DNA of 64,000 nt. Origin: Candidatus Poribacteria bacterium (lineage in GTDB: Bacteria > Poribacteria > WGA-4E > WGA-3G). Made by a program: the position numbers and the translations under genes. Every line of letters starts with the position of its first letter. Positions within the stretch are counted from its first letter, which is position 1. The notes beneath the pieces are model-generated. The model worked only from the letters and a program-made list of their open reading frames with translations, did no database searches and had not been told where the DNA came from. The stretch spans positions 3,616,001-3,680,000 of the forward strand of contig CBDANF010000003.1 of assembly GCA_965197475.1 (NCBI GenBank), written 5' to 3'. Below, piece by piece: positions 14,954 through 56,818 of the stretch.

Positions 14954-15462
14954 ATGTCAACCTTTTGGCATGAGCTCTGTTTAGTATGAAAACCAGATTT
15001 TACCGCAAAAAACGCCGATTTGGCAGTTGTGGCCGCATTGGGAGGATTTATCGTGATGCCGATGTTTCCACTCTTTTTTGAGGAACACGGGATCCGCCTC
15101 AGTATTGTCACACTTGTCATCACACTTTGGGATTCTTGTCCCTAAAAGAACTTGACACACAAGAGGAGCCACAACGTGTTGAGGAAACCTCGTCTGTTTT
15201 TCACAAACCAAAACGCAAGAAAAACAAGCGGAAACTTATCACTGCAGCGATTCTCGTTTTGATAAGTGGGGTTCTTCTGTTCGGTGCAATCAAAATTATT
15301 GATGCCACGCAGACAGACACAACCTCCTGCCCTGAATGGACACGGAAAGACTGTATTAAGGAGGAACAGCAACCGCCTTGTCCAGAACAGAAATTGCCTT
15401 GCCCGCTGAATACAGCAGAGCAAGGTGAACAACCGTCCAAGAAGGAGAAAACTCATGAATAG
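14954..15462 (+). CDS. Cassette gene A: small membrane protein (basic patch, TM, Cys/Pro tail); 5' part frameshifted
   Basis: KRKLITAAILVLISGVLLFGAIK homologous to the 54105 and 56016 ORFs; AGGAGG-ATG at 14954 with hydrophobic segments in shifted frames before 15127. Confidence 0.65.
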
Positions 15463-16462
15463 GAATATGGTCCGAGGAAGTATTGTCCTCATCGTTTTAA
15501 TCGGTATCGCAATCGTGTTCTTGTTGATAGACAAAGACACCGAAACGATAACAGTCTATAACCCACCATCAGAAGAAGTCTTCCAAAAAAAGATACGGGA
15601 TGATTTGGCAGCAAAAGACGTGGTCAAACCACCTCCCCCTGGCGAAACGGAGGATAGCGGGTATTGGCACGGCGACCACTGGCATGAAACTTCGCCCGGT
15701 AAACCAGAGACGGAGGATACGCCAGGTGAAGCTGTGAAATCTTCCGTTAATGTACCCTACCCTCGCGGACAAACATCCTCAAACCCACTTTTGGCAGATG
15801 GCGTTCCCGAACACCTCAAATGTCCCCCTAAGTGGATTGGTGTTCAAGGTGACGACCTCTCTGAGGTGGAAAAAGAGGAGGTAAGAACCATATTCCGTGA
15901 AATAATAGAAAAATATAATCCCAAGCGACCTCTCGCCGATATCTGGTCGGCATTTATTGAAGCAGAAAAGTTCTATTATGCAAATAATGTTATTAGTACC
16001 CACACCAAAGGCAGCGACGGTCTTATTCCCATTGATTACACCCCTATCGGTCCGGCAACAGAGCGAGTGGACTGGATGCTGCAACATGCCCTTGATTATC
16101 CTGAGATAGTAGAACTTAGTTTCAAAAAGGACTACTTGTTTGATGATGTGCGGCTCGTGGAGATTGGTAGAGAACATCCAGATTGGAACAAGATTACGCT
16201 CCCAGACAGACGCACGTTCCGCGAAAAATCAGGCTACTACTATGAGTTCACATACTACGAAGGCAAGGGGCACCCAGACCCTAATGATCCGCATATCCAC
16301 GGATATAACGGGACGCTGCGGACAATTCGGACTGGGCATTCTGGTAAAGATGCAACCCTCGTCAAGATCCACCTAAACGATACTTCCGATGAAGAACTTG
16401 AAGCGTTGAGTGGGTGGGATTTTAACATTAACCCTTATACACAGGAGGCAATTCGAAAATGA
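15455..16462 (+). CDS. Cassette gene B: N-anchored membrane protein with KPPPPGETEDSGYWHGDHWH motif
   Basis: AAGGAG RBS, N-terminal TM, motif shared with the 52541 and 54518 ORFs; overlaps both neighbours. Confidence 0.8.
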   Translation: MNRNMVRGSIVLIVLIGIAIVFLLIDKDTETITVYNPPSEEVFQKKIRDDLAAKDVVKPPPPGETEDSGYWHGDHWHETSPGKPETEDTPGEAVKSSVNVPYPRGQTSSNPLLADGVPEHLKCPPKWIGVQGDDLSEVEKEEVRTIFREIIEKYNPKRPLADIWSAFIEAEKFYYANNVISTHTKGSDGLIPIDYTPIGPATERVDWMLQHALDYPEIVELSFKKDYLFDDVRLVEIGREHPDWNKITLPDRRTFREKSGYYYEFTYYEGKGHPDPNDPHIHGYNGTLRTIRTGHSGKDATLVKIHLNDTSDEELEALSGWDFNINPYTQEAIRK

Positions 16463-16690
16463 AAAAACTTTTTATATTTCTATTAGCAGCCTTTATGCTA
16501 ATGGTTCCGACACTTCACATACAAGCACAACAACAGAAAGTCATATTACACAGTTGGAGTGAACCGGAACCCGACAAAGCTGTTCATCCTTTAGATGATA
16601 ATAATGACGATGCTGATAAACCTTTTGCAATTCAGAGCATCAAATATGCGGAACGTGGTTATTGTTCCGGTTGCGAAGTTTACTATCTTA

Positions 16691-17597
16691 TAGTAAATCC
16701 CGTAATTACTTATACACTTTTATAATATCATCAATAGAAGTCTGAGCATTGTATTGACGTATCCGCTTGATGTTGGCGAAATCCTTCTCAATCGGATTCA
16801 ACTCCGGTGAATACGGTGGTAAAAACAACAAACTCGCACCGCAATCCCGGATCAATGCCGCCGTCTGTGAACCTTTGTGGAAAGACGCATTATCCATAAT
16901 CACAACATGGCTATCGTCAAGCAATGGACACAACATTTCCGAAAGCCAACTGTTGAAGGCGATCACATCGCAACTGCCCTTGAAAAGCACAGGTGCTGTG
17001 AAACATCCATCAAGCCGTGCCGCAATCAGCGTCGTGGTGGTATACCGATGGCTTGGCACTTTATCTTCAACACGGACACCTTTCGGGGCATAAGCATACC
17101 GACGGAAAGTGGTTTCAGTGAAACCACTTTCGTCAAGATAAACCGGTTTTTTGCCATGCTCGTGTGTCTCTTGTTGAAGTGCCGAAAGATACTCTTGGCG
17201 TTTTATCGGACACTGTTCTTTGTAGGTCGTTGTCTTTTTTTCGCGTAATATTGAGTTTTGAGAAGGCATAAAAGATGCCGTTTGTTGAAACACCGAAGTG
17301 TTTGGCACGTTCGGCGAGTGTGGAATCTGGGAAATCGGCAACATGTTGCTGAAGTGCGTCATAATCAATATCTCGGGGACCTTTGGGTCCCGGTTTTTCA
17401 CAGGCGAAGGGGTCTTCTGCTTCCAACCAGTTATAGATCGTTCTTCTTGAGACACGAAAAGTGCGTTCTGCGGCGGCTTTACTGCCACCATTATTGATGA
17501 AATCAAGCACGCGTTTGCGTCCATCTGTTGAATATGCCATAATCATAAAGGCTAACATAAATCACAGAAAATGTAAACTTATTTTCAGGATCTACTA
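16691..17597 (-). mobile_element. IS630 family insertion sequence
   Basis: Imperfect TIRs TAGTAAATCC/TAGTAGATCC, TA duplication, HTH ORF + DDE ORF (YLDESG, MDNASFH, LPPYSPELNPIE) joined at an A7G slippery site ~17234-17241. Confidence 0.92.
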
Positions 17598-18237
17598 TAA
17601 TAGCACGGCAACAGTAAGCATATCTGCAGTCCCCATGACTAACATTGAAGGTAGAAATGTGAACTATGATGCGGAAGGTTGGGCTTGGCTTACAGGGGAC
17701 GGTGCTGTTCTTGATGCTCCCTCTGGTGATGGCATAAACAGAGAAAATGAAGAATCGTCACCGGATGGCCCCTATAAGTATGATAAGTTAAAAAGAACCA
17801 AGAATACTGACAATAATAGGTCAACGACAACAGCAAAAACTGTGTTCAAAAGACATGCTGTCTTTTTAGGTAGTGCTTTCTTGGAAGACGAGAGGCAGCG
17901 TAATTTTGACCTCTATGAAACGGCTGGTAAGAATGGTACTCATCCTATCTCCCCAACTTCCCTAAATGCGAATCCATGGGCGAAAGGGAGACTTGACACA
18001 GATTCCAACAGTTCTCTAAATTCTACCATACGGGTAATGAGGAGTGAGACACCTAGCTGCAGTAGTTCAGGAGCAAATCATACATGTAGGAAAGACACCA
18101 CTCAAGCCAATTCAGGTAATGATAACAGTGAATTTGTCGATAATACTAGCAACTGCACTTACTGTTCAAATGGATGCTTCCTTTGTACTATAACTGGACC
18201 CTGCGGACATACCTACTCGGATGTGACAGCATCACAG

Positions 18238-18684
18238 CACACACTCCAAGCTAGTTGCTCCGAAACAGATGAAAACGGGAATACTTGCACGGTGACAAAC
18301 TTCTATGCTTGTGAATCGCACACGCATCAATACACCTCGCTTATCACGGGTGCTTGTGGGGTGCATACCGGCATCGCCTCAAGTGATGCAAGCAACCACG
18401 CTTATACAGTGGGTGGCTGTACGCATTCCTACTATATGTGTCAAGCAAGCGGCCATGAATGGGGCACCGCGCCGTGTGGTGATGCAACACACGTAGGGTA
18501 TTTGTGTCAAATCGCTGCCTCTGATCACGAGTGGGTATATGAGATTTGTCCATCCATGCATGCACATTATGAATGTGATGGCGCAGATCATTCATTACAA
18601 GCGAGTTGTTCAGAAACGAATGTGAACGGCGATAGTTGTACGGTCACTAACTTCTATGCGTGTCAGTCGCACACGCACCAATAC
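18238..18684 (+). repeat. Two copies of a 32-aa Cys/His repeat
   Basis: HTLQASCSETDENGNTCTVTNFYACESHTHQY (18238-18333) vs HSLQASCSETNVNGDSCTVTNFYACQSHTHQY (18589-18684), 26/32 identical. Confidence 0.9.
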
Positions 18685-19116
18685 CTTATAACTTGTGGGA
18701 ACACCAGAACCGGTCCTGAGACTTGTGATGGCGGTTCGGTGACAAGCAGCACACAACATCGAGCAACCTGCACACACGGACACTCTTACTGGAACTGCAA
18801 CCCCTGGCATCGCCACTACCACAAAGAGCGAACCTGCACTGCCTGCAATGTGCGTTACTATCGATGTCTGCGAGAGTCTTGTATTGCTGGCGGACTACAT
18901 AAATGGTAGGGATTCTCCGCTAAATCTCTCATCAACCTCTATTAAAAAACTGGCAGGTCCCCTTTAGCGGTGTCTGTCTTTCTTTTCGTCAAAACCTCCA
19001 CTGCGCTGACATAAAATCATATCCCCAACACACGTGATTTATGAATCCCTTTCTTTAATAATTAGAACTGTGGTATAATTGTTACCAACGGACAATATTG
19101 AATTGGAGGCTATGGA

Positions 19117-20289
19117 TTGTTAAAAGTATCAAAGTTTGGTGGGAGTTCCCTCGCAACGGGCGAGCAGGTTCACCGAGTTTGTGACATCATCACAACCGAC
19201 TCCACATGGCGGTTAATTGTCGTATCAGCACCCGGAAACGCCACAGTCAAGACATAAAAGTAACCGACCTGCTGATTGCAGCCGCATCGGAAAGACTAAT
19301 GGGAAAAATCGGTGCATCGGAATGTGCTGAGGCAATTGAACGTTACAGGAATATCGCTTCTGAATTGGAACTCCCCGCCGAGGTTATTGAACCTATCGCA
19401 AAAGACTTGACTCAACGTTTAGAAAACAGCACAACCGATGCTGATCTCTATATGGATACAAGAAGGCAGGCGGAGAGGATAATTGTGCCTGTCTAATTGC
19501 GCAGGTGTTGCAAGCACGCGGCGTAGAAGCACACTACGTGAATCCGAAGGACGCTGGCTTACTACTGTCCGACGAACCGGGCAGTGCGCAAGTTCTTCCT
19601 GAGGCATATAACCGCCTGTGAAGTCTAAGCGAACGTTCCGGTATCACGATCTTCCCAGGCTTTTTCGGATATTCAAAAGAAGGCAATATTGTAACCTTTT
19701 CTCGTGGGGGATCAGATATTACCGGTGCTATTCTCGCTAGTGCTGTTCGGGCAGAAGTCTATGAGAACTTCACAGATGTTGACTCAGTGTTCGCTGCAAA
19801 TCCTTCTATTGTGCCGAATCCTGCCCCGATTGCGGAACTAACCTACCGTGAGATGCGCGAACTTTCTTACGCCGGTTTTTCAGTATTTCACGATGAGGCA
19901 CTTGAACCTGTGTATCGCGCAATGGTGCCTGTCCACATCCGAAATACGCACAATCCAAAATCTGCTGGCACATTGATTGTTCCGCACTGCAACTCAAGGA
20001 AAATCCCTGTTGTGGGTATTGCCGCGATGAGCAATGTCTGTTGTGTCTACCTTAGCAAGTATCTGATGAACCGACAGATAGGGTTGTCGGTGAAGGTATG
20101 CGGCACACTGTCGGTATAGCCTCACGAGCAACAAGTGCATTAGCAAGTGCGAAAGTAAATATAGAAATTATCAACCAAGGTTCAAATGAGGTTAGCATGA
20201 TGTTTGGCGTAAAATCAACAGATATGGACATTGCAGTTCAAGCACTCTATGAGGAATTTTTCAATGGTAATAACAGCTCAACCGAATGA
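19117..20289 (+). pseudogene. lysC: Aspartate kinase pseudogene
   Basis: KVSKFGGSS, VVSAPG, FSRGGSDITG, TYREMRELSYAGFSVFH, VGEGMR..EIINQGS; several frameshifts, an in-frame TGA at ~19619 and an ACT-region deletion. Confidence 0.85.
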
Positions 20290-20604: not shown

Positions 20605-21614
20605 TAACGTGAGTTTGATAATTAAAAACTGGTAAATAGAGAACCCCTTTGTTATTATGAAGTATATCAAATACGGACAAAGGAGTTCTCTGATGGATAT
20701 CATAACACTTTTCTGTGAAATTGACGACTTTTTTCTTGCGTCCGAACAATATCAAGCACAACACCAGTTACCGGAAATCCCCGGAACAAGCAATACCCGT
20801 GGCAGACTTCGGTGTCTTCATCCGAGCGAAGTCATGACGATACTTGTGCATTTTCATCAGAAGCAGTATAAAAATCTTAAAGCCTATTATCAGGATTATG
20901 TTTGCTGCCAGTTGCGTTGGGCGTTTCCAAAACTTGTCAGCTATAGTCGTTTTGTGCAGCTCTCACAAGAGGTATTGGTTCCGTTGTCTATTTTTCTGAA
21001 CACCCGTTTCGGTGAATGTCGTGGGATTTCCTTCATAGACTCAACACCCCTTCCGGTCTGCCACAATCGTCGGATTTCAACGCATCGCGTCTTCGCTGAG
21101 TGTGCGGGTCGTGCTAAAACTTCTATGGGATGGTTCTATGGGTTCAAACTACATGTCGTCATCAACGACCAAGGTGAACTGTTGTCCGCTATGGTGGCAC
21201 GGGAAACGTAGATGACAGGCAACCCGTGCTACAGTTGTGTCGTGGGCTCTTTGGCAAACTATTTGCCGATAAAGGATATATCGCCAAAAATCTGCGGGAG
21301 AGACTCCAAGAAGAAGGCGTGTCCCTCATTTACAAAGTGCGTCCGAATATGAAACCTGAACCTTTGTCTGATGCAGCACTCTTGAAGAAACGGATGCTCG
21401 TTGAGTCCGTAAATAAAGAACTCAAAAGTCAGACAGAGGGACAACACACACGACATAGAAGTCCTGTTAACTTTCAAGTGAACACAGTTGCTGCCTTGAT
21501 CGCTTATACCTGTCTGAAGAAGAAACCTTCACTCAAACATAAAGAACTTCAGGAAAAAGACTGTCAGTTGCCAATGATATGTAACTTCTAAAAATATTTA
21601 TCAAACTCACGTTA
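20605..21614 (+). mobile_element. IS982 family insertion sequence, frameshifted transposase
   Basis: Inverted repeats TAACGTGAGTTTGATAA / TTATCAAACTCACGTTA; LFCEIDDF, FIDSTPL.VC, GWFYGFKLH, ADKGY, HTRHRS; 1-nt shift at ~21200. Confidence 0.9.
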
Positions 21615-21736
21615 GAAAAGGTAGAATACGCGTGTGGTATTCTGCATGATATTGAACTTAAAAAGTCGTCATTTCGGTATTTTAACCCTAAATCCCCTTA
21701 TCAAGGGGACTTTTGTTTGAACCTATTGCGTAAGTC

Positions 21737-21962: not shown

Positions 21963-22138
21963 CCGTATGTAACAATATCTTGACTTTTAATATCAGATGT
22001 GTTAAAGTACATCTGTTTGAATGGAATACCCTCAAACCCCATGCAATGCGACTGACCAAGACTTACGTAAATCCGGCAGCTCCAATAAAAGTAGTTCTAC
22101 TGGTGAAACTAAACATTACATGAGACAAAAAGGAAATT

Positions 22139-25100
22139 ATGTCAATAACCGATTTTTTTCGTGGAAAGGTCCTACTAATTACTGGCGGGACTGCCTTCCT
22201 CGGGCAGCCGATGCTTGCCAAAATTCTAACTTCCCTTCCAGATGTAAAAAAAATATACCTCCTCATCAGAAGCCGGGTTGAGTCGAACGGTAAAGTTACC
22301 TCTGCCCAAGAACGTTTTGAAAATGAACTGTTAACTTCCGATGTTTTTGATGCATTACGTCGGTTGCACGGCACACAGTTTAAGACATGGGTTATGGATA
22401 AAGTTACTGCGGTTGAAGGCGAACTGATGGATGAACGTCTCGGCTTTAGTGATGCGGACTACCAACGTCTTCAGAATGAGATAGACGTTTTTATTAATAT
22501 CGCAGGACTCGTTGACTTTGACCCTCCTTTTGATGCCTCGCTAAAAGGTAACACACTCGCCGCCAAACATGTTGTCACGTTCGCAAAGGGTTGTGCTAAT
22601 GTAGTTTTTCTTCATGTTTCAACAGCTTACGTCTGCGGTGATACACCTGGGCGAGTGGCAGAGGAACTTCACCTACCTTACGAAGAATACGCGCAACAAC
22701 ATAATGAAAAAACCGGAACAGCAATTCCACCAACACTCTCGGAAGAAATTGACTATCTGCTCGCGTTGAGCCAGTCTATTCGCGATGAAGCTGAGGCACC
22801 CGTGCAGACAGCGCGTTTTCAACAGATAGCGCAAAAACAATTACAGGCAAACAAGCGTGGGAGTCGGAAAAACTTAGAGGTGCTTGTTGAAAAAGCTAGA
22901 GCAGAATGGCTTGAGGCGCGTCTGGTTGAAGCAGGACTTGAACACGCGCGTTCACGCGGATGGAACGATACTTATACCTACATGAAATTCCTTGCTGAAC
23001 AAGTAATCATGGAATTACGTGGTGACCTTCCTACTGCGATTGTTCGCCCTTCAATTATTGAAAGTAGTGTTGCTGAGCCCCACCCTGGGTGGCTCGGTAA
23101 GTATCGGATGTCCGAACCGCTTATTGTCGGTTTTGCGAAGGGGCGTATCCCCGATTTTCCAGCTGACCCAGATATTATATTGGATATTATTCCCGTTGAT
23201 TTCGTCGTGAATGCAATGTTAGCCGCTGCCGAAGCAATAGCGAATAGTGGTGGAATTGAGGTTTACCATGTTGCAACTGGCACCCAGAATCCGCTATATT
23301 TTCGTGGCATTGTTGATGCAACTTATGGCTATTTTACTGAAAATCCTATGATGGAAAATGGAAAACCGGTTCCAGTCCCCGTGTGGCAGTTTCCCAGTCT
23401 GGAGTTATTCGAAAAGAAAGTAGATGGCAAAATGCGCATGCTTGATCGCACAATTAAGGCACTCGCGCTATTGCCGATGAAATCAGCAAAACGACAACGT
23501 AGAAGACTCATTCTAAGACAGAGTGCCATAAAAGCTCTATTGCATTACATTCGAATTTACGCGCCTTATACCCGAACAAACTTTGAATTTGAAACGGAAA
23601 AGATGCAGAGGCTTTACGACGGACTATCACCTGAAGAGCAGCAACGCTTCAGCTTTGATGTTTCTCAAATTCATTGGAAGCAGTATTTTCAGGAGATTCA
23701 CATTCCCGGCATCAAGCGACATGTGCTAAAACTTGAGGACAGCACATCTGACACACAAAAAGTGGAGGAAGTTTCCGACTCTTCAAAAAATCGAAAAACA
23801 CCGTCTCAAGAGGAAGCGAACGAGTCTCCTTCCCCAGCTCCAAATCCGATAGACAGTATCTCTCCCCGAACGATCATAGATTTAATTGAAATTCAGGCAA
23901 AACGTATTCCCGAAAAAATTGCCCTTCAGATGGTAAACGATGGAGAATGGGAGCGTTATACCTACGCTGAAACCTATACGCGTTCACGCCAAGTTGCGTT
24001 CCAATTATGGAAAAGCGGATTACGTAAAGAGGATCGAGTTGTTTTAGTCTCAGAAAACCAACCAGAATGGTGTATTGCTTACCTCGCCGCCTCGCAAATC
24101 GGTGTTGCGGTTGTCCCTCTTGACGCGCAGACCCCTACACGCGAAATATTAGCAATTGCTGAGTTCACCGATGCGAAAGCAATCCTTGCATCCGATGCTG
24201 TTTTAACTCAGTCATCTGCACTGTTGACTGATGCAAAAGTTCCGTTGCAGAATATTAATAGGTTTAACGAAGTGATTGATTCTGATGAAGATATCCCAGA
24301 GGATTTTCCAAACGTAGAGGTTTCACCAGATACCGTCGCATCTATTATTTTCACGATGGGAACAACTGTAGACGCGAAAGGTGCAATGCTGACTCATGGC
24401 GGATTTATCTCAAACGTTAAAGCCGTTGCAAAGGCACTGCCTCCGACAGATTCGGAACGTATCTTGTCAGCACTCCCACTGTATCATGCACTGAGTTTTT
24501 CATGTAGTCTGCTAATGGCACTTTATAGTGGCACCACTGCTACTTATGTCAATGCTTTTCGCCCGACAACACTTTTGAAAACGATGCGTGAGGATAAGAC
24601 CACAGCATTTATCAGTGTGCCGCGACTTTTTCAGATGCTTCAAAGCACTATTGAGCGACAGGCATCGCGCAAAGACACACCAGGAGAAACCTTAGCCGAA
24701 AAGGCACAAGCAGTTATGGGGGGTCATATTCGCGTCCTTGTCAGCGGTGGTGCTGCTCTCGCCGATGCAATTTATGACGGGTTCCAAAAATTTGGTATGA
24801 CACTTTATCAAGGCTATGGAATGACTGAAACAGCACCTGTTTTGAGTGTCAATCCTTATCTCAATAGCAAACGTGGGTCTGTCGGACCGGCTGTGGAAGG
24901 CGTAGAATTTCAGATTGTAAATCCGAATTGCGATGGTATCGGTGAGATTATTGCCAAGGGTCCCAGTAATATGAAAGGGTACTATCAAAATCCACAAGCC
25001 ACCGAGAAAGCTATCCGCGATGGTTGGCTCTATACTGGCGATCTTGGATATATTGATGGGGAGGGTTATCTCTATATCACAGGACATTGTAAGGATGTTA

Positions 25101-49791: not shown

Positions 49792-50265
49792 TTAGAAAAA
49801 CTGCAGCCTGCCGCCATGCAGGACTATGTCTTTTCCTGCTTCATGCAGTGTAACACGTTTTGATTGAATCTCTTTTACACGTACATCGTCAAGGGTGTCC
49901 CCGACTTTGACAGTATGCAACCGATTTGAACGCCGCTCCAATATAAACGCCTTTGAATCTGCTGTGTTCTGGGAAACTGCTGTGCCGATGAGGGTATAGT
50001 CCGGCTGTTTTCTGGGCGGTTGCCAACCGAGTGGACGGAAGATGTTGGTGTCTATGATGAGTTGGTAGAACGCGTCAGGGTTTTCTGCAGTTGTGTTGGA
50101 ATTGACAGCGTTTACCTTCGGTTGTTCCACATTTGCTATTACATCTTTTTGATGCGGAATTTCAGTTGCGGGTGCCAATTTTGGTGCATGTTGCAGATAT
50201 AGAATGATACCAGCAGTGAGGAGTAACGGGATGATAAGACCTATTATGAAGGATTTTACTTTCAT
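49792..50265 (-). CDS. Membrane protein with GspC/PilP-like domain
   Basis: AAGGAG RBS, N-terminal TM, NIFRPLG, YTLIGT..AFI..VKVGD.L..VKEI...VTL. Confidence 0.6.
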   Translation of the reverse strand: MKVKSFIIGLIIPLLLTAGIILYLQHAPKLAPATEIPHQKDVIANVEQPKVNAVNSNTTAENPDAFYQLIIDTNIFRPLGWQPPRKQPDYTLIGTAVSQNTADSKAFILERRSNRLHTVKVGDTLDDVRVKEIQSKRVTLHEAGKDIVLHGGRLQFF

Positions 50266-50355
50266 TAAGTGCTCCTTTACAAAAAACAGGCAGATACCCA
50301 AAAGAATATCTGCCTGTCAGTTCCAAGACACGCCCCTTTCTAATCTAAAGGACAA

Positions 50356-52524
50356 CTACTCAACCGACACGTAGTCAGATAAATAATCCGGATCGCCCCA
50401 CGCATCACCATTCCACGGATACACACGCGCAGTGATCTTATAGCTGCCACTCGCAGCGTCAGTAGGGAACGTGTAAGGCAACGTTAATGATGTTGCCGTG
50501 GTGCTGCCAGAGAACCATCCGATTGTTGTGCCATAGGTACTTGTATCACCCGGCGTACGCACAAACAGATGCGCCCCATAAATAGGTAACTCACATGTGA
50601 CAACCGGAGACAAAGAATCACCCGCACTATAGCTGCTTGAACCGACGACGGACAAACTGGGAGCAAAACTCAGCACAGGTGTCGGACTTGACACCGTCAC
50701 GTAGTCGGATAAATAATCTGGATCGCCATACGTACTCCCCTCCCACGGATACACACGCGCCGTAATCTTATACTCGCCACCTGGAGCGGTATCGGGGAAC
50801 GTGTAAGGCAGCGTCAATGTCGTTGTGGTGGTGGTGCCAGGGAACCATCCTATTTGTGTGCCATAGGTGCTTAAGTCCCCCGGCGTACGCACGAACAGAT
50901 GCGCCCCATAAATAGGTGCCTCACAGGTGACAACAGCAGATAAAGCATCACCCGGAAGATAGCTGTCCGAGGTGATAGATAAAGTGGGAGCAAAACTCGG
51001 CGCAGCTGGACAGATACACCACCGATGCCCACACAGTCCATTGGTATTGAAATCTGAAGGGGATCCACACGTGCCGGTGTCCGTGCAGTAGTCATTGACA
51101 GCATTGTAATCGCATCCATGATCAAGACTGATGCCGGTGTTCGTACTTATGGGATTGACAACATTGTTCTCATCTTCTTCCTCGTTAACAACTACAGGTT
51201 CCGCGTCAATGCCAGGCATTGGCGCGAAGTGTGGACGCGTCGTGGCATAATCTTCCAAATGATGTGTATAATATTTGTCTCGCGGCGTGTCAATCAAAAA
51301 CCACATGTAGCAGTCCCTCTCCTTCTCATCCTCCGCATTTTCTCCATCATCTTCATCTTCGTCATCATCTGTAGGACAATGCCCCAGATTGACACAGTGG
51401 CCTATCTCGTGTGCCAATATATTCGGTATCAAAGCCTCTTTGTCATCTGCAAAATGCGTATCCAATGTTGTTGTATAGACGATTGCCTCTGACTGATAAC
51501 TAGGTGCCGCTTTAGAAGAGGCATAACCTAATTTAAACCTATTGTTAGCTGATGGGATTATGTCGGCACTTGTTATAACATCAATCGCCCAGACCTGTTT
51601 ATACCCTTCCAAGTCTTCATTGTTGTAGTTGACATAACGACTGTCATCAGCGTCATCACCTTCCTTTGGCCCATCGGGATTTCTGACGCATTCCGATGAG
51701 AGGATATGACACGAGTGTTTTGGGAGATCATTTGCATTGCCACACCCATCTTCAGCAAGACTATCTTCTATAATCGCGAAAAAATCTTTTTGCGATGGAG
51801 AACACCGGAAGTGATGTATATCAATGACATTGTCCTCTTCATCTCTCGTCAACTTTTCAGAAAAACCGCGATATTCTGCGATTATAGAAAGTCCGTCTCC
51901 CTTATATCGATTGTTATCGGCATCCACACGCTCCGCATCTTTCGTAATATCTGCTTTTTGCGCAGCGTTGCAATTCGTATCTTCCCAAGCATCCGCAATC
52001 TTGTTTTTAGGGGTGGTATCTCGCGGTATGCGTAGTGCTTTTGTATCATCCTTTATTGAACTTGATGTGGAAACATCCAAGATACCAAAAGCAGCGGTAT
52101 CAAAACAACTGACAGCGAGTAAATAGTAGAACGTCTTTACATTCCCATCGTTCTCTGGTGGAATCCATATCTCGAATTGCCCGTTTTCTTCATCCCAATC
52201 TGTTCGCCTTTCTTCTGAACTGGTATCGGGTTTTTGCGCGGACAATAACAACTGAAGATCAGCATCCATGTTATCCCCGTAGTTTCCACAGACACCTTGA
52301 TAGATTGATACATCCGAAAGACCCGCATAAAGCCATCCACCAGAGAAATGGGGTGTAACTGTTACGTCTATATATATCGCAACATCAGACTTCCATTCCG
52401 GCAGCCAACTTGGATCGGCTTGTTCAAGTTTGCTGATAGTAACTTTCCCAACGTTTGAGATACCTGTACTACCGAAAAACAGAAGAAAAATGAGTAAACT
52501 GATGACAAAAAACGTGTTCTTCAT
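50356..52524 (-). CDS. Cassette gene C: secreted metzincin-like protease with Cys-rich linker and two Ig-like repeats
   Basis: Signal peptide MKNTFFVISLL, HEIGHCVNLGH + CYM, Cys cluster GCDYN..CGHRWCIC, two ~105-aa repeats. Confidence 0.75.
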   Translation of the reverse strand: MKNTFFVISLLIFLLFFGSTGISNVGKVTISKLEQADPSWLPEWKSDVAIYIDVTVTPHFSGGWLYAGLSDVSIYQGVCGNYGDNMDADLQLLLSAQKPDTSSEERRTDWDEENGQFEIWIPPENDGNVKTFYYLLAVSCFDTAAFGILDVSTSSSIKDDTKALRIPRDTTPKNKIADAWEDTNCNAAQKADITKDAERVDADNNRYKGDGLSIIAEYRGFSEKLTRDEEDNVIDIHHFRCSPSQKDFFAIIEDSLAEDGCGNANDLPKHSCHILSSECVRNPDGPKEGDDADDSRYVNYNNEDLEGYKQVWAIDVITSADIIPSANNRFKLGYASSKAAPSYQSEAIVYTTTLDTHFADDKEALIPNILAHEIGHCVNLGHCPTDDDEDEDDGENAEDEKERDCYMWFLIDTPRDKYYTHHLEDYATTRPHFAPMPGIDAEPVVVNEEEDENNVVNPISTNTGISLDHGCDYNAVNDYCTDTGTCGSPSDFNTNGLCGHRWCICPAAPSFAPTLSITSDSYLPGDALSAVVTCEAPIYGAHLFVRTPGDLSTYGTQIGWFPGTTTTTTLTLPYTFPDTAPGGEYKITARVYPWEGSTYGDPDYLSDYVTVSSPTPVLSFAPSLSVVGSSSYSAGDSLSPVVTCELPIYGAHLFVRTPGDTSTYGTTIGWFSGSTTATSLTLPYTFPTDAASGSYKITARVYPWNGDAWGDPDYLSDYVSVE
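50359..50999 (-). repeat. Tandem ~105-aa beta-rich domain repeat
   Basis: SFAP..VVTCE.PIYGAHLFVRTPGD.STYGT.IGWF..LTLPYTFP..YKITARVYPW..GDPDYLSDYV twice. Confidence 0.9.
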
Positions 52525-52540
52525 AATAGTCTCCTTATCT

Positions 52541-54091
52541 TCACTTTTTAGGGCGTTTTGCTTCAAGAAGCCGCTGCACCTGTGCGGCGACATCTGGGTC
52601 ATTTTTTTGAAGATGTTTTATCCCCTCTTTGGCACCGTAGCGTTCCATCGTTTCAAAAGCTCGGATGATACGTTCGAGGTCAAACTGTGCTTCCCCACCT
52701 TTTAGATATATCTCCATCTCCTTCATCAGGAAGTTATTCGTATCAATAGGAGATGCAGCGTTTTCAATGCTTTCCACCCATTCAAAAAAATCGTTGAATT
52801 CCTTGTTGCGTGTTATTTCTTCAAGTTTCTTGAATTCCTCGCGTGCCTTTTTGGCAGCTGCTGCCCTTGTGGCCTCAGGATCCACCGTGTCCTGTTTTAG
52901 TGGCAGCGACGGGGAGTCATCAGACCAGTGGGGGGTGTCCTCAGGGAACGTTTCGGGGATTGAGGTGCTGTTGTCCACATCAAATGGATTCCCCATATCG
53001 TGGGGCACACTGACATCGAATTTCTCCTCCGCAATTGGGAGAATATAAGGCGTGCCAGCTTCAATCGCTTTAATATGAGATTTAGGCTTCCAATGCCCCG
53101 TCTTCTTATACGCACGCTTGTGGTAAACCCAAGCTGTCTTGTAGTCACCTATACGTTCATACGCTTCACCTAATATATGATTGCTCATCACGGGATAGTC
53201 CCCATGCGGCTCATCCAACTTCGCTGCCAACTTGAGATACGGGATCGCCTCCTCCGGTTGGTCTCTCCACAGGCGATTCCCTAAATGAACGTAGATGTGA
53301 CGCCGCACGGGGATCGCTTCTTCAAGCACTGAATGGACAATATGCTGCGAATACGGATCCCTCTGTAGCAACTCACGATACAGGGAGACCGCACGGGAAG
53401 CGTCTTGATCGGTATCCGCAAGAAACAACTTCGCCTCAAAGTGCTCAGGACTATCCGAAGCTGTTTCCGAAAGAACTCGTTCAGCATGGGCGCGAAGGAG
53501 ATCGTACGATCTTGTATTTGGATGGAACGTAATTTGTTCGTGCACCACTTTCAGATGTTTAAAAGCACTCACGGTATCTAGGCGCGCTAAGAGTGCCGGA
53601 CTATAGTTGCCATGTTTTTCATAAAAACGGACCGCAGACTCCATGTCCATATCGCCTACTGTCAGTTGAAGCACTTTCTCAGAATATTCTTCTCGCGTTA
53701 TTTCATCAGCTTCCATCATTTTACGCCACTCACGCTTCTGTTTCAGTTGTCCGACTGTATACAGGATAGGCTGGGGACTGATAACACCACAGCCGAGCCG
53801 GCTCATTATACTCTCCTTACGAACAGGGGTAGGTACGGGAGATGTTTTGTGCCACACCCCGTTGCGCCAATGTCCGCTTTCTGTGGTTTCGCCAGGTGGA
53901 GGTGGTTTAACTCCTCGTTTTGAGGATTGTGATACACGGGGTCCCTGCTGATTCGGTTCCGCAGAGGGGGTGTGCTGCGCGGTTTCTGTGTCCTGTTGTG
54001 GTTTCCCACGTTGTATCAAAATCACCGTGCTAATACCGATACCGATAAGGATACCGAGTATCCAATACGCGTTGTTTCTAAAGAATCTCAT
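52541..54091 (-). CDS. Cassette gene B: membrane-anchored TPR-like protein with KPPPPGET..GHWRNGVWH motif
   Basis: N-terminal TM, LG..L...EEAIPYLK.A, LGEAYERIGDYKTAW; C-terminus shared with the 54518 ORF. Confidence 0.85.
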   Translation of the reverse strand: MRFFRNNAYWILGILIGIGISTVILIQRGKPQQDTETAQHTPSAEPNQQGPRVSQSSKRGVKPPPPGETTESGHWRNGVWHKTSPVPTPVRKESIMSRLGCGVISPQPILYTVGQLKQKREWRKMMEADEITREEYSEKVLQLTVGDMDMESAVRFYEKHGNYSPALLARLDTVSAFKHLKVVHEQITFHPNTRSYDLLRAHAERVLSETASDSPEHFEAKLFLADTDQDASRAVSLYRELLQRDPYSQHIVHSVLEEAIPVRRHIYVHLGNRLWRDQPEEAIPYLKLAAKLDEPHGDYPVMSNHILGEAYERIGDYKTAWVYHKRAYKKTGHWKPKSHIKAIEAGTPYILPIAEEKFDVSVPHDMGNPFDVDNSTSIPETFPEDTPHWSDDSPSLPLKQDTVDPEATRAAAAKKAREEFKKLEEITRNKEFNDFFEWVESIENAASPIDTNNFLMKEMEIYLKGGEAQFDLERIIRAFETMERYGAKEGIKHLQKNDPDVAAQVQRLLEAKRPKK

Positions 54092-54104
54092 GTCCGTTCC
54101 TCCT

Positions 54105-54371
54105 CTATTTCCCTGCTTCGCGCGTGCAAGGCGGTCCGATTGATTTTGGACAAGGCGTTTCCTGTTTTTCCAATATGATACTGTCAGATCGGGGTTGTTC
54201 TATGCAGTCAAGTTTATCCATCTGTGTTGCGCGTGTCATTTTAATAGCACCGGTCAGAATAACCCCGCTAATCAAAATGAGAACTACTGCAGTGATGAGT
54301 CTCCGCCTGTTTTTCCGGTATGCAGCCATGGCTGCCACGTCAACTTTTGTAGTTAATAACTTCGTTTTCAC
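54105..54371 (-). CDS. Cassette gene A: small membrane protein
   Basis: GGAGG RBS + GTG; RRRLITAVVLILISGVILTGAIK; Cys/Pro tail. Confidence 0.75.
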   Translation of the reverse strand: MKTKLLTTKVDVAAMAAYRKNRRRLITAVVLILISGVILTGAIKMTRATQMDKLDCIEQPRSDSIILEKQETPCPKSIGPPCTREAGK

Positions 54372-54387
54372 AATTGTATATCCTCCA

Positions 54388-54504
54388 TTAAAATATGTCA
54401 AGCCAAATTAACGTAATGAGTTTTCCCTCCGAAATGCAGGGTATGCCAAGAAGTACACAGCAGAGGCAGAATATGCTGACAAAAAGGAATGTTCTGTTTT
54501 TCAT
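54388..54504 (-). pseudogene. Signal-peptide stub of a lost cassette gene C
   Basis: AAGGAG RBS, MKNRTFLFVSIFCLCCVLLGIPCISEG, then runs into the duplicated segment and stops (38 aa). Confidence 0.7.
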
Positions 54505-54517
54505 AAAAGTGTCTCCT

Positions 54518-56002
54518 TTACTTTTTTGGGTGCGGTAGACGTTTTTCAGCGAGGAGGCGTTGCACCTGCTTCGCGACCTCGGGATCGTTCTTCTGGAGAT
54601 GTTTTATTCCTTCTTCAGAACCGTAGCGTTCTAAGGTCTCAAAGGCACGGACAATACGGTCCGGTTCAAATTGGGCTTGCCCACCTTTGAGGAAGGCCTC
54701 CATCTCCTTCATTAGAAAGTTATTGGAATCCATAGGCGTATCTGCGTTCATGATTGTTTCTGCCCATTGCAGAAAATCGTTGAGCTCCTTTTGTAAGAGT
54801 TCTTGATTTTTCAGGAACTCTTCGTGTGCCTGTTTTGCGGCGGCAGCTGCGCGATCACGGTCGGAGTCTACTGTCTTGTGTTCAGATCCAAACTGAGGTG
54901 AGGTTTCTTTGAACCACGCGGTATCATCACGCGATGTTTCTGAGACAGTGCCAGTGTCTTGTGGAAAAGCATCTTGCACCTCAGGCAGTTTGCCGGTGTT
55001 TTCAAGGCGTTTTTCTTTAAGCTGGGGCAACGGTTGAATCCTGGGTCTTCCAGCTTCAATTGCTTCAATATAACCATCTAAAAGCGGACCATGCAGATAG
55101 GTTTGTGCCTTCTTAAGATATACCCAAGCAGTTTTGTAGTCCCCTAATCGCTGATATGCTCTTCCTAACGCAGCAAGTCCTGCTGAGGGGTCCATGCGGT
55201 TTGCACGCTTCAGGTGGTAAATTGCCTCTACCGGATGATCCATAGCGAGGTTAACCCCCAAACCGGTTAAGGCACCGATTGAATCCGGGAAGTCTCTCAG
55301 TATTTCTCGGAACTCCGCTGCTGACCGTGCATCGTCTGGACCTCTGTAGACGAGGTAAAGACGCCCTTCAAGGAAATCGGGGTTTTCATCTATGGCACGT
55401 TGCGCATATTCACGGGCACGTTCTCTAACATACGATCCCGACGGAAAAGTCCTAAGTACTTTAAAGGCACTTGCGGTATCCAGTCCTTCTGTCAAAATGT
55501 TAATCACTTCTTGACGTTTTCCTAAAATCCATGCTTCCAGACTTACGTCAACGTCGGGGACGATAGACATCTCCTCTCCAATTTGGTGAATAAGATCTAT
55601 TTTTTCTTGTGGGACACCAAGTTCTGACATAATCTCTGTGGAAGTTCTTCTCTCGTAGTCAGGTCTATGTGGATGGTGTTTCCATTGCTTTAGTGTTGGG
55701 AGGTCCGTATCCGTTTTTGATGGAGAACGGGTTGTTTTTAGAACCGCCCTTGGGGGTTTTCTCTTTGCAGGAGCGGCATACGATGTTTTGTGCCAATGGT
55801 CACCATGCCAATAACCCGTTTCCTCTGTCTCTCCGGGCGGTGGGGGTTTTTTCGCATCCGGTGTGTGATCGGCAATATCAGGTATGTTTTGGACAGCTTC
55901 CACCACCTGTTGTTGTCCGCGTTGTACCAAAATCACGGTGCTAATACCGATACCGATAAGGATACCGAGTATCCAATACGCGTTGTTTCTAAAAAATTTC
56001 AT
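54518..56002 (-). CDS. Cassette gene B: membrane-anchored TPR-like protein with KPPPPGETEETGYWHGDHWH motif
   Basis: GAGGAGG RBS, MKFFRNNAYW TM, EAIYHLKRA, LGRAYQRLGDYKTAW. Confidence 0.85.
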   Translation of the reverse strand: MKFFRNNAYWILGILIGIGISTVILVQRGQQQVVEAVQNIPDIADHTPDAKKPPPPGETEETGYWHGDHWHKTSYAAPAKRKPPRAVLKTTRSPSKTDTDLPTLKQWKHHPHRPDYERRTSTEIMSELGVPQEKIDLIHQIGEEMSIVPDVDVSLEAWILGKRQEVINILTEGLDTASAFKVLRTFPSGSYVRERAREYAQRAIDENPDFLEGRLYLVYRGPDDARSAAEFREILRDFPDSIGALTGLGVNLAMDHPVEAIYHLKRANRMDPSAGLAALGRAYQRLGDYKTAWVYLKKAQTYLHGPLLDGYIEAIEAGRPRIQPLPQLKEKRLENTGKLPEVQDAFPQDTGTVSETSRDDTAWFKETSPQFGSEHKTVDSDRDRAAAAAKQAHEEFLKNQELLQKELNDFLQWAETIMNADTPMDSNNFLMKEMEAFLKGGQAQFEPDRIVRAFETLERYGSEEGIKHLQKNDPEVAKQVQRLLAEKRLPHPKK

Positions 56003-56015
56003 GTCCGTTCCTCCT

Positions 56016-56282
56016 CTATTTCCCTGCTTCGCGCGTGCAAGGCGGTCCGATTGATTTTGGACAAGGCGTTTCCTGTTTTTCCAATATAATACTGTCAGAT
56101 CGGGGTTGTTCTGTGCAGTCAAGTTTATCCATCTGTGTTGCGCGTGTCATTTTAATAGCACCAGACAGAATAACCCCGCTAATCAAAATGAGAACTACTG
56201 CAGTGATGAGTCTCTGCCTGTTTTTCCGGTATGCAGCCATGGCTGCCACGTCAACTTTTGTAGTTAATAACTTCGTTTTCAC
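56016..56282 (-). CDS. Cassette gene A: small membrane protein
   Basis: Differs from the 54105 copy at 3 residues. Confidence 0.75.
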   Translation of the reverse strand: MKTKLLTTKVDVAAMAAYRKNRQRLITAVVLILISGVILSGAIKMTRATQMDKLDCTEQPRSDSIILEKQETPCPKSIGPPCTREAGK

Positions 56283-56818
56283 AATTGTATATCCTCCATT
56301 AAAATATGTCAAGCCAAATTAACGTACAGCAAATGCAACAACAAAAGCCCGCGACGAGACACTCCGTGTGAAACAGCGCGCGCGTGCGGGCGCGAAAATA
56401 TCGCAGCTGCTAACATCTGCGATAAGACTTTGTGAAGTAATAAAATTAACGAACGTGAAGTGGAGGGGGGGTATTAACTTATAGTTAAAATTCGCCAACC
56501 GACGTATGCTGCGTGAGCAAATCCTGCTCAGGTGGTAGGCATCCAGCGTGGTCACTTTCTGATTGTGGTATTCATATCTCGGTTTTTCATTGTTAAATCC
56601 CCTTTTTGCAAAATAGGTTAATGCGGTGCAACTTTATGTTAGACGCGCATAATTTCCATATTCACCCAATTCAACGTTATATATTGCAAGCTAGGTTACA
56701 GAAAATTTCAACTTTTTTCTAAAAATTCGCAAAAATTTAGATATTTACACCAATTTTCCCATGAAAATACTCGTAAGACTCGGGTTTGCCAATTTTCCAT
56801 TGTAGAAAACATGGGTGT

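What the first reader, a model, noticed from the sequence alone, without database searches (positions are those of the whole stretch)
14954..56326. Recurring three-gene cassette: membrane partner A, PPPGET/WH-motif protein B, variable secreted protein C
Seen: the same gene order occurs at 14954-18909 (+), 56282-54388 (-) and 54371-50356 (-). A is a small protein with a basic patch, the TM LITA..L.LISGV.L.GAIK and a Cys/Pro tail. B is N-anchored, carries KPPPPGET..GxWxxxxWH and has a variable body. C is a signal-peptide protein whose body is unrelated between copies (Cys/His repeats vs metalloprotease). Genes overlap or lie within about 20 bp. Inference: a polymorphic surface or secretion module (effector with cognate chaperone, anchor or immunity protein), possibly for host or competitor interaction. 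I recognise no named system with this layout.
Basis: partly seen in the sequence, partly recalled or inferred. Interest (0 to 1): 0.82.

Follow-up and report, generated by a model that had tools for sequence, protein, structure and literature searches.

The report
Poribacterial membrane-anchor and secreted-protein gene cassette
A sponge-symbiont (Poribacteria) genome carries repeated small operons that pair membrane-anchored proteins of unknown family with variable exported proteins, probably a lineage-specific protein-export module, though its function is untested.

Summary
The window holds three A-B pairs, not three A-B-C trios. Copy 2 has no C gene. Copy 1's A shows two frameshifts, and a 907-bp IS630 element splits its C.

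All named relatives come from Candidatus Poribacteria. In 8 of 8 A-headed cassettes fetched from 5 other Poribacteria genomes, an N-anchored B-like gene follows A. In 7 of those 8, a signal-peptide gene follows. The reverse link does not hold. A is rare (19 protein clusters). The B motif sits just behind an N-terminal anchor in about 145 of 153 clusters with many different bodies.

The C proteins are mosaics of shared modules, not unrelated proteins. B-body type tracks C type. All four protease-type cassettes end with a fourth gene, D. Its model matches the secretin-binding HR domain of GspC/PilP.

Best reading (confidence 0.4): B is a membrane-tethered periplasmic partner of the exported C, like the type II secretion chaperones LipB and CpaB. 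D links to a secretin, and A is an accessory protein. No binding or secretion was shown. Neither A, the motif nor the B1 body matches any Pfam, NCBIfam or PDB family.

The parts
14987..15133 (+). A1, N-terminal part (two hydrophobic segments of the long A form), out of frame with the rest of A1
   Evidence: Frame translation. DNA alignment to the intact L001 A shows a +1 and a -1 indel in homopolymer runs. A-family HMM hit at 14999-15133, E = 4e-16.
15127..15462 (+). A1, C-terminal part: basic patch, transmembrane segment LITAAILVLISGVLLFGAIK, and Cys/Pro tail
   Evidence: ORF; alignment; HMM E = 2e-54.
15455..16462 (+). B1: N-terminal anchor, KPPPPGET..GYWHGDHWH motif, and a 230-aa body of unknown fold (an alternative GTG start lies at 15425)
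   Evidence: 113 homolog clusters. AF2 model with pLDDT 80.9 and no PDB fold match.
16459..16690 (+). C1, 5' piece with signal peptide (MKKLFIFLLAAFMLMVPTLHIQA)
16691..17597 (-). IS630-family insertion sequence interrupting C1. The transposase lies in two overlapping frames (17558-17133 and 17524-16706).
   Evidence: Pfam HTH_Tnp_IS630 5.5e-29 and DDE_3 2.4e-30. Inverted ends and TA flanks.
17600..18909 (+). C1, 3' piece: Cys/His-rich protein (28 Cys and 25 His in 436 aa) with an internal repeat ..LQASCSET..CTVTNFYAC.SHTHQY
   Evidence: In frame with the 5' piece once the IS is removed.
56016..56282 (-). A2 (88 aa, short one-segment form; GTG start with GGAGGA 9 nt upstream)
54518..56002 (-). 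B2: anchor, motif, TPR region and conserved C-terminal helical domain (494 aa). No C gene follows.
   Evidence: Pfam TPR hits; PDB TPR matches to the family profile.
54105..54371 (-). A3 (88 aa), differing from A2 at 3 of 98 aligned positions
52541..54091 (-). B3: anchor, degenerate motif (KPPPPGETTESGHWRNGVWH), TPR region and C-terminal domain (516 aa)
50356..52524 (-). C3: signal peptide, metzincin-like domain (HEIGHCVNLGH), a Cys-rich module, and two C-terminal repeats (722 aa)
   Evidence: Weak archaemetzincin and Reprolysin_5 hits, below their cut-offs.
50285..50318 (-). Terminator-like hairpin (15 pairs, then a T-rich tail) between C3 and D
   Evidence: a pattern match only.
49792..50265 (-). 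D: N-anchored protein of 157 aa with a GspC/PilP-type HR domain
   Evidence: Pfam T2SSC 24.2 bits (cut-off 27). NCBIfam GspC_delta E = 3e-7. The top 10 Foldseek matches to its AF2 model are all LspC, GspC, PulC, PilP or GspB. Orthologs follow C in L002, L006 and L007.
55906..56326 (-). Conserved 5' block of cassette 2 (44 nt upstream, A2, and the first 32 codons of B2)
   Evidence: blastn: 424 aligned positions, 96.7% identical to 53992-54415.
53992..54415 (-). Conserved 5' block of cassette 3

Best explanation
This is a Poribacteria-specific envelope operon built from four kinds of gene.
- A is a small inner-membrane protein (one or three hydrophobic segments) whose Cys/Pro tail probably faces the periplasm.
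- One to three B proteins follow. Each is held in the inner membrane by an N-terminal helix. After about 30 residues comes the PPPPGET..G.WHGD.WH beta-hairpin motif, then a variable periplasmic body (TPR plus a helical domain, or the B1 fold).
- C is exported through Sec. It is a mosaic built from a shared pool of modules: a metzincin-like protease, Cys-rich modules, Cys/His repeats and Ig/PKD-like repeats.
- D, found in the protease-type cassettes, is an anchored GspC/PilP-type HR-domain protein.

Proposed mechanism (inferred). After Sec export, the cognate B holds or matures C at the periplasmic face of the inner membrane. This is what the membrane-bound type II secretion chaperones LipB/Lif and CpaB do for LipA and CpaA. 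Where D is present, its HR domain couples the cassette to a secretin for passage across the outer membrane. A is an accessory partner of B's anchor, inherited together with it.

The block 'A plus the start of B' acts as a conserved recombination handle. Behind it, the B body and C are exchanged as a cognate pair.

Shown: gene order, its conservation, the anchors and signal peptides, the mosaicism, the fold of D, and the shared 5' blocks. Inferred: every physical interaction, the topology, and secretion itself.
For: 1. A is followed by a B-like gene in every case examined. The window has 3 of 3. The fetched loci give 8 of 8 A-headed cassettes (7 loci in 5 Poribacteria genomes). The gap runs from an 8-nt overlap to 33 nt in 7 of them and is 165 nt in L002. 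One more pair carries consecutive NCBI locus tags, OXM61_04260 and OXM61_04265.
2. A protein with a Sec-type signal peptide follows in 7 of those 8 cassettes and in 2 of 3 window cassettes.
3. B-body type goes with C type across genomes. The B1-type body precedes a C1-type Cys/His protein in 2 of 2 cases (window, L001). TPR-type B precedes the C3-type protease in 4 of 4 (window, L002, L006, L007).
4. D follows all 4 of 4 C3-type cassettes and none of the others.
5. The confident part of the D model (pLDDT 86-89 over residues 90-150) matches GspC in the ETEC GspC-GspD complex (3oss_C; target TM-score 0.82, rmsd 2.8). It also matches the PulC HR domain (target TM-score 0.75), LspC and PilP. All top 10 hits are of this kind.
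6. PMC4713064 (passages read) defines a type II secretion chaperone by four features. It is encoded next to and co-regulated with its effector. It has an N-terminal transmembrane domain. Its C-terminus is exposed to the periplasm. It is required for secretion. B meets the adjacency part of the first feature and the second. CpaA, the client of CpaB, is likewise a metallopeptidase.
7. Tandem cassettes share a conserved 5' block and then diverge: 424 nt at 96.7% in the window and 691 nt at 88% in L003.
8. B has only 5-10 cytoplasmic residues, so it cannot signal into the cell.
Against: - No interaction is shown.
- B has no sequence or fold similarity to Lif or CpaB. Pfam and NCBIfam give only TPR hits. 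The B1 model has no PDB match (best Foldseek E = 1.6).
- The motif-bearing B superfamily is much larger than A: 153 clusters at 50% identity and 113 B1-type clusters, against 19 A clusters and 7 genomic A loci. At least six NCBI Poribacteria MAGs have B1-type proteins but no A hit. A therefore cannot be essential to B.
- What lies downstream of the A-less majority of B genes was never seen.
- Cassette 2 has no C. L004 has an A but no recognisable B or C.
- D scores below the curated cut-offs (24.2 against 27; 30.5 against 150), lacks the PDZ or coiled-coil end of canonical GspC, and is separated from C3 by a terminator-like hairpin.
- No secretin or gsp gene is in the window.
- The loci were fetched by using A, so the linkage counts outside the window are biased towards A.
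Confidence: 0.4

Rival explanations
1. There is no functional coupling. The cassettes are tandem arrays of independently acting envelope or surface proteins. These would be anchored TPR 'eukaryotic-like' proteins and secreted proteases or adhesins used on the sponge host matrix. They cluster only because duplication and recombination in a variable, IS-rich region keep them together.
For: - B-type proteins mostly occur without A.
- Array composition varies: one to three B genes, with C or D present or absent.
- IS630 elements sit in or beside C genes in 3 cassettes: window C1, the L007 C, and the second L003 C.
- TPR proteins are listed among the eukaryotic-like proteins of sponge symbionts (listing and abstract starts only).
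Against: - Overlapping or closely spaced genes suggest co-translation.
- The order A, B, C, D is kept across 5 genomes and at different chromosomal sites.
- B-body type tracks C type in 6 of 6 cases.
Confidence: 0.22
2. The anchor plus the PPPPGET/WH hairpin is an N-terminal sorting or processing signal. A shared Poribacteria machinery recognises it, and a protease may release the variable body. B proteins would then be cargo themselves, and A would modulate that step for a subset.
For: - The motif lies at a fixed distance (about residues 40-95) behind an N-terminal hydrophobic segment in about 145 of 153 clusters. The listing shows 150 of these. Among the 144 newly returned proteins, the 8 with five to seven matched stretches are repeat proteins of other kinds.
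- Lengths run from 78 to 565 aa. 123 of the 144 newly returned proteins have no Pfam domain at E <= 1e-4.
- This 'conserved tag plus anything' layout resembles known sorting signals (recalled, not tested here).
Against: - No candidate sorting enzyme is linked to it in the window or in the loci.
- No cleavage evidence exists.
- In the B1 model the motif is a moderately confident hairpin (block pLDDT 71-82) rather than a disordered linker.
Confidence: 0.15
3. This is a polymorphic effector-immunity module for competition between bacteria. C would be a secreted toxin and B (or A) the membrane-tethered protector of the producer's own envelope.
For: - The conserved handle with swappable B body plus C resembles the layout of polymorphic toxin loci.
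- The C proteins are mosaic.
- C3 carries a protease motif.
Against: - No known toxin or immunity domain was found in Pfam, NCBIfam or PADLOC.
- The variable downstream gene is a large exported protein, not a small immunity protein.
- No delivery system for contact-dependent killing is nearby.
Confidence: 0.1
4. This is a metal-handling module. The His/Trp hairpin of B and the Cys tail of A would bind Zn or Cu and load it onto the Cys/His-rich or zinc-protease C proteins.
For: - The motif often reads HWHGDHWH or HWHGDEWH..PH.
- A's tail has 3-4 conserved Cys.
- C1 has 28 Cys and 25 His in 436 aa, and C3 has a zinc-protease motif.
- A resemblance to the streptococcal histidine-triad motif HxxHxH is recalled, not tested.
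Against: - Only W, W and the last H are invariant in the 7 aligned motifs. B3 reads GHWRNGVWH.
- 8 hits that matched only the hairpin part of the profile are GYWKNG-type repeat proteins, so the hairpin may be purely structural.
- No Pfam metal-binding family matched.
Confidence: 0.08

Closest known systems
Membrane-bound type II secretion chaperones (LipB/Lif with lipase LipA; CpaB with metallopeptidase CpaA), as defined in PMC4713064
   Same: B is encoded next to its presumed client on the same strand, often overlapping it. It has a single N-terminal hydrophobic anchor, with the rest predicted to be periplasmic. The client is Sec-exported, and in one cassette type it is a metalloprotease.
   Different: B has no sequence or fold similarity to Lif or CpaB. 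It carries an extra conserved juxtamembrane motif. Up to three B genes can precede one C. An additional small membrane protein, A, is present. Requirement for secretion is untested.
GspC / PulC / LspC HR domain, and PilP and GspB (secretin-N0-binding domains of type II secretion and type IV pilus machines)
   Same: D has an N-terminal anchor, a linker and a six-stranded domain. That domain superposes on GspC-HR, PulC-HR and PilP (target TM-score up to 0.82). Sequence hits to T2SSC and GspC_delta are weak but consistent in 4 of 4 orthologs.
   Different: D is 152-158 aa and ends right after the HR domain, with no PDZ or coiled coil. It scores below the curated family cut-offs. It lies behind a secreted-protease gene rather than in a gsp or pil operon.
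Polymorphic toxin loci (CDI, Rhs and similar; compared from general knowledge)
   Same: A conserved 5' part is followed by a sharply diverging 3' part plus a matching downstream gene. Tandem copies share the 5' block at high DNA identity.
   Different: No toxin or immunity domains are present. The variable downstream gene is a large exported protein. The conserved part is a membrane anchor, not a delivery domain.
TPR 'eukaryotic-like proteins' of sponge symbionts
   Same: B2 and B3 contain 3-4 TPR repeats and come from a sponge-symbiont phylum.
   Different: The TPR region is only about 100 of about 500 residues. The proteins are membrane-anchored and sit in a conserved operon. B1-type bodies have no TPR.

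Membership tests
Type II secretion membrane-bound chaperone (working definition of PMC4713064) | Encoded adjacent to, and in the same operon as, a secreted effector | tested here: met
   B1 and C1 overlap by 4 nt and B3 and C3 by 18 nt. The same order holds in 7 of 8 fetched cassettes. Co-transcription itself was not measured.
Type II secretion membrane-bound chaperone (working definition of PMC4713064) | Single N-terminal transmembrane helix with the C-terminal part in the periplasm | tested here: inconclusive
   A hydrophobic N-terminal segment is present. The AF2 model has a helix at residues 3-28. Orientation is inferred only from the positive residues before the helix.
Type II secretion membrane-bound chaperone (working definition of PMC4713064) | [quoted passage not shown] | not testable with these tools
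   This needs genetics or heterologous expression.
Type II secretion membrane-bound chaperone (working definition of PMC4713064) | Homology to Lif (lipase chaperone) or CpaB | tested here: not met
   No such Pfam or NCBIfam hit for B1, B2 or B3. The only CpaB hit was for D, at E = 0.043 over its anchor. The B1 model has no PDB fold match. The published class is not defined by homology.
GspC/PilP HR-domain proteins (for D) | HR-domain fold | tested here: met
   The top 10 Foldseek matches are LspC, a PilP chain of the type IVa pilus machine model (3jc8), GspC, PilP, GspC-HR, PulC-HR and GspB, with probability 0.99-1.00. 3oss_C gives target TM-score 0.82 and rmsd 2.8. The model has pLDDT 86-89 over residues 90-150 but only 66.7 overall, from a 4-row alignment.
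GspC/PilP HR-domain proteins (for D) | Score above the curated family cut-off (Pfam T2SSC 27 bits; NCBIfam GspC_delta 150 bits) | tested here: not met
   T2SSC scores are 24.2, 20.3, 18.8 and 17.6 bits for the four orthologs. GspC_delta scores 30.5 bits.
GspC/PilP HR-domain proteins (for D) | PDZ or coiled-coil domain after the HR domain (canonical GspC), or a lipobox (PilP), and placement in a gsp or pil operon | tested here: not met
   D ends about 7 residues after the last strand. It has a plain hydrophobic N-terminus. No gsp or pil genes are in the window or the loci.
Metzincin-type zinc metalloprotease (for C3) | HExxHxxxxxH zinc-binding motif | tested here: met
   The motif is HEIGHCVNLGH. 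HEI.H.VNL is kept in 4 of 4 family members, and one of them has D in place of the third H.
Metzincin-type zinc metalloprotease (for C3) | Significant match to a curated protease family | tested here: not met
   Archaemetzincin 20.9 bits (cut-off 145). Reprolysin_5 13.6 bits (cut-off 27). PDB archaemetzincin E = 0.33.
Polymorphic toxin-immunity systems | Recognisable toxin domain and a small cognate immunity gene downstream | tested here: not met
   No toxin or immunity family was found. The downstream genes encode 226-753-aa signal-peptide proteins.
TPR repeat proteins (for B2 and B3) | TPR repeats | tested here: met
   TPR_14 scores 26.7 bits for B3 (cut-off 23.5). The family profile matches designed and natural TPR structures over positions about 190-310, down to E = 1.5e-86.
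IS630 family insertion sequence (element in C1) | HTH_Tnp_IS630 plus DDE_3 transposase, terminal inverted repeats and TA target duplication | tested here: met

The most novel reading that the evidence does not exclude
The cassette is a previously undescribed, recombination-driven export module. A conserved handle (A, B's anchor and the PPPPGET/WH hairpin) docks at a fixed site in the envelope. The B body and its cognate C protein are swapped behind it as a pair. A private GspC-like protein (D) plugs particular cargoes into a secretin. The PPPPGET/WH module, present in about 145 protein clusters with many bodies, would then be a new lineage-wide envelope-targeting domain of Poribacteria.
Probability: 0.2. 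Interest if true: 0.75.

Novelty: new variant of a known kind. Interest (0 to 1): 0.52.

Why it matters
Poribacteria are uncultivated, abundant sponge symbionts. How they export proteins into the host matrix is essentially unknown.

This cassette gives a concrete, testable set of candidates:
- a secreted metzincin-like protease and Cys-rich proteins;
- their likely membrane-tethered helpers;
- a GspC/PilP-like link to a secretin.

It also defines three protein families with no curated annotation: the A family, the anchor-plus-PPPPGET/WH module, and the confidently modelled B1 body that has no PDB match.

If the chaperone reading holds, substrate-specific type II secretion chaperones would extend well beyond Proteobacteria, and in a polymorphic, cassette-like form.

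Tried and rejected
- **Complex prediction of C3 (23-520) with B3 (55-516), using own alignments.** Score 0.02 against a mark of 0.32. The verdict was 'no answer', so it counts neither for nor against binding. It used the only complex job, so A:B was not tested.
- **Sequence searches of PDB with C3, C1 and B1.** No significant match. Profile searches with the D, C3-family and B1-family alignments also gave nothing significant.
- **Foldseek of the B1 model against PDB.** Best E = 1.6.
- **ESM Atlas look-alikes for B1 and C1.** No usable hit.
- **PADLOC defence families for 12 cassette proteins.** Only one weak hit (JukA, E = 0.0034), which I disregarded.
- **Full-text search for PPPGET, PPPPGET, HWHGDEWH and WHGDHWH.** One unrelated food-peptide paper.
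- **Search for 'Poribacteria' plus 'type II secretion'.** 8 papers, none about this cassette, judging by title and abstract start.
- **The listing of cluster members for locus tags of the paralogs in this genome.** The database was switched off, so adjacency of the other A and B paralogs on the 4,167,388-bp contig stayed unchecked.
- **Anti-sigma or signalling role.** Rejected. B has almost no cytoplasmic part. A sigma-factor region-4 gene is next to A in only 1 of 7 loci (L004), and an HTH_3 gene in 1 of 7 (L001).
- **RiPP precursor idea for A.** Not pursued, because no modifying-enzyme family is in the cassettes.
- **Promoter-like TTGACA-17-TACAAT sites in front of A2 and A3.** They overlap the Shine-Dalgarno site and start codon, so I give them no weight.


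Full report
**What is in the window**

The window (44.7% G+C) comes from a Candidatus Poribacteria genome. Every relative of A or B that carries a source name is called Candidatus Poribacteria. All 7 fetched loci are Poribacteria MAGs. The surroundings are ordinary chromosome with several insertion sequences: sulfatase, GFO/IDH/MocA oxidoreductases, metG, ftsH, folP and sodA.

- the A transmembrane pattern;
- PPPGE[TS];
- G.W....WH.

HMMs built from relatives score the three A genes at E = 1e-36 to 1e-54 and the three motifs at about 1e-20. The recurrence is real.

**Corrected anatomy**

Cassette 1 (+ strand):
- A1 is 15127-15462. Its family's N-terminal part lies at 14987-15133 in another frame. 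The cause is one 1-nt insertion and one 1-nt deletion in homopolymer runs relative to the intact L001 gene. Related long single-chromosome MAGs also show frame breaks in B genes, so assembly error is as likely as decay.
- B1 is 15455-16462.
- C1 is 16459-16690 plus 17600-18909. A 907-bp IS630-family element with TA flanks splits it. Without the element the frame runs 513 codons with no stop.

Cassettes 2 and 3 (- strand), in order:
- A2 (56282-56016)
- B2 (56002-54518)
- A3 (54371-54105)
- B3 (54091-52541)
- C3 (52524-50356)
- a terminator-like hairpin
- D (50265-49792)

No C gene follows B2. A2 and A3, together with the first 32 codons of B2 and B3, lie in a 424-nt block that is 96.7% identical. 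The rest of B is at most 75% identical over 237 nt.

**The protein families**

*A.* This family is rare. There are 19 clusters in 5.8 billion proteins. The scan of one genome per species found 7 loci in 5 genomes: 38 pattern matches, of which 7 were confirmed.
- Long forms (145-195 aa) have three hydrophobic segments. Short forms (67-88 aa) keep only the last one.
- All members share a basic patch, the segment LITA..L.L.SGV.L.G.IK, the sequence IDATQTD, and a tail with 3-4 conserved Cys, often in CP pairs.

*B.* This is defined by its front end, not its body.
- The B2/B3 type is anchor, TPR region and a conserved helical C-terminal domain. It has 49 clusters, and 15 of them carry the motif by regular expression.
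- The B1 type has 113 clusters, and 59 carry the motif by regular expression.
- A 41-column profile of the motif alone, run over 1.84 billion representatives, finds 153 clusters at E <= 0.001. In nearly all of them the motif sits at residues about 40-95 behind an N-terminal hydrophobic segment. Lengths run from 78 to 565 aa.
- Of the 144 newly returned proteins, 123 have no Pfam domain at E <= 1e-4 and 15 have TPR hits. 8 hits with five to seven matched stretches are unrelated GYWKNG-type repeat proteins.
- The B1 AF2 model (80-row alignment, pLDDT 80.9) shows the anchor helix and the motif as a beta-hairpin (residues 69-78). It also shows a confident alpha/beta body that has no PDB fold match.

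*C.* All C proteins begin with Sec-type signal peptides. They are mosaics rather than unrelated proteins.
- C3 is 62% identical to the L006 C protein and about 32% to those of L002 and L007.
- These four share HEI.H.VNL.HCP and one to three copies of a Cys module (..YGCDYNAE.DYCTDTGTC....G.CGHRWC.CPAA). The L005 C protein also carries the Cys module.
- The L002 C protein ends with C1-type Cys/His repeats.
- The L001 C pieces match C1.
- C3's terminal repeats match parts of the L005 C protein and the second L003 C protein.

- It is a 157-aa anchored protein.
- Four orthologs all give weak T2SSC hits (24.2 to 17.6 bits against a cut-off of 27). The window copy hits NCBIfam GspC_delta at E = 3e-7.
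- In its AF2 model the six-stranded domain has pLDDT 86-89.
- All top 10 Foldseek matches are secretin-binding HR domains: LspC, GspC in the GspC-GspD complex (target TM-score 0.82), PulC, PilP and GspB.

**Conservation of the arrangement**

The 7 loci hold 8 A-headed cassettes, because L003 has two in tandem.
- In 8 of 8, an N-anchored gene follows A. The spacing runs from an 8-nt overlap to 33 nt in 7 cassettes and is 165 nt in L002.
- In 4 of 8 (L001, both L003 cassettes, L006), a B gene in the cassette carries an HMM-detectable motif. L005 and L007 have degenerate versions.
- In 7 of 8, a signal-peptide gene follows. The exception is L004.
- D follows all 4 C3-type cassettes (window, L002, L006, L007) and no others.
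- L006 is syntenic with window cassettes 2 and 3. It keeps a 34-codon remnant of A between its two B genes.
- L002, L005 and L007 carry the cassette at a different site, just upstream of rpsL-rpsG-fusA.
- Consecutive NCBI locus tags link one more A-B pair.
- B-body type goes with C type in 6 of 6 informative cassettes.
- The two L003 cassettes share 691 nt at 88% (upstream region, A, and about 90 codons of B), then diverge completely in B body and C. This repeats the pattern seen in the window.

**Limits of the linkage**

The loci were fetched by using A, so they cannot show how often B occurs without A. The cluster counts do bear on this:
- 153 motif clusters, 113 B1-type and 49 B2-type clusters, against 19 A clusters.
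- No contig length is shared between most B hits and the A hits.
- At least six NCBI MAGs have B1-type proteins but no A hit.

A is always linked to B, while B is mostly not linked to A. What lies downstream of the A-less B genes is unknown.

**Mechanism**

The best-supported reading is an export module.
- B has 5-10 cytoplasmic residues, one helix, and a periplasm-sized body.
- C is Sec-exported and immediately downstream, often overlapping B.
- D has the fold that type II secretion and type IV pilus machines use to contact the secretin.

The closest described concept is the membrane-bound type II secretion chaperone. LipB acts on LipA and CpaB acts on the metallopeptidase CpaA. PMC4713064 defines the class by four features:
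- adjacency to the effector;
- an N-terminal transmembrane domain;
- a periplasmic C-terminus;
- a requirement for secretion (passages read).

B meets the first two. The third is inferred and the fourth is untestable here. B is not homologous to Lif or CpaB.

A is best seen as an accessory membrane partner inherited together with B's anchor, in three matching A and B-anchor classes. It is not essential to B-type proteins in general.

I put 0.4 on this mechanism. The descriptive statement, that this is a conserved Poribacteria cassette, is much firmer.

The rivals are:
- mere co-location of independent surface proteins;
- the motif as a sorting or processing tag;
- an effector-immunity pair;
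- metal handling.

**Novelty and verdict**

None of the following has a curated family or a solved relative:
- the A family;
- the anchor-plus-motif module;
- the B1 body;
- the Cys modules.

Four full-text searches found no paper on the motif or the cassette. At the system level it looks like a new variant of chaperone-assisted, secretin-dependent export, with a polymorphic handle-and-cargo layout.

The finding is real and moderately interesting (0.52). The trio is not a fixed unit, one copy is damaged, and the function rests on inference.

Noticed in passing
window 16691-17597; L007 13332-14458; L003 14038-15164: IS630-family elements sit inside or directly against C genes in three separate cassettes. 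Window C1 is split, the L007 C gene is split, and an element abuts the end of the second L003 C gene. This could be target preference for TA-rich sequence, or tolerance of C loss.
   Followed up: partly
window 14987-15133; L006 10233-11533 and 11650-13283: Frame breaks in A1 lie at homopolymer runs, and both L006 B genes also show frame breaks. In single-contig MAG assemblies this may reflect sequencing error rather than pseudogenes.
   Followed up: partly
L002, L005, L007 (about 6000-18500): In three genomes the cassette lies between a folA-like and amidohydrolase-like gene set and the rpsL-rpsG-fusA-tuf operon. This is a different site from either window cassette.
   Followed up: no
window 22139-26413: A 1424-aa fusion protein with fatty-acyl reductase (NAD_binding_4, Sterile), AMP-binding, carrier-protein and acyltransferase domains, followed by a HAD hydrolase. 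This is an unusual one-polypeptide lipid-building layout.
   Followed up: no
window 20657-21591; 37839-38588; 38929-39831: Three further transposase genes are present: a DDE_Tnp_1_3 type split into two frames, an IS1595-like type, and a DDE_Tnp_4 type. A fragment of an aspartokinase-like gene lies at 19787-20119, next to cassette 1.
   Followed up: no
window 9420-10214 and 7019-7504: A fused nucleotidyltransferase-HEPN protein (264 aa) and a Uma2-family endonuclease-like gene.
   Followed up: no
window 56819-57832 and 57992-59407: Next to cassette 2 lie an anchored SdiA-regulated/phytase-like beta-propeller protein and a 471-aa protein with beta/gamma-crystallin domains. Both are probably envelope or secreted proteins.
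   Followed up: no
L001 13265-17337: Directly after the L001 cassette come an outer-membrane efflux protein, a HlyD-type adaptor and an ABC ATPase (a tripartite exporter). This is not seen at the other loci.
   Followed up: no
L004 9454-9906: A sigma-70 region-4 protein lies just upstream of A in L004, the one locus where A is not followed by a recognisable B or C.
   Followed up: no
window 56284-56312 and 54373-54401 (- strand): Identical 11-of-12 matches to TTGACA-17-TACAAT lie in front of A2 and A3. They overlap the GGAGGA ribosome-binding site and end 2 nt before the GTG start, so they may be coincidental.
   Followed up: partly
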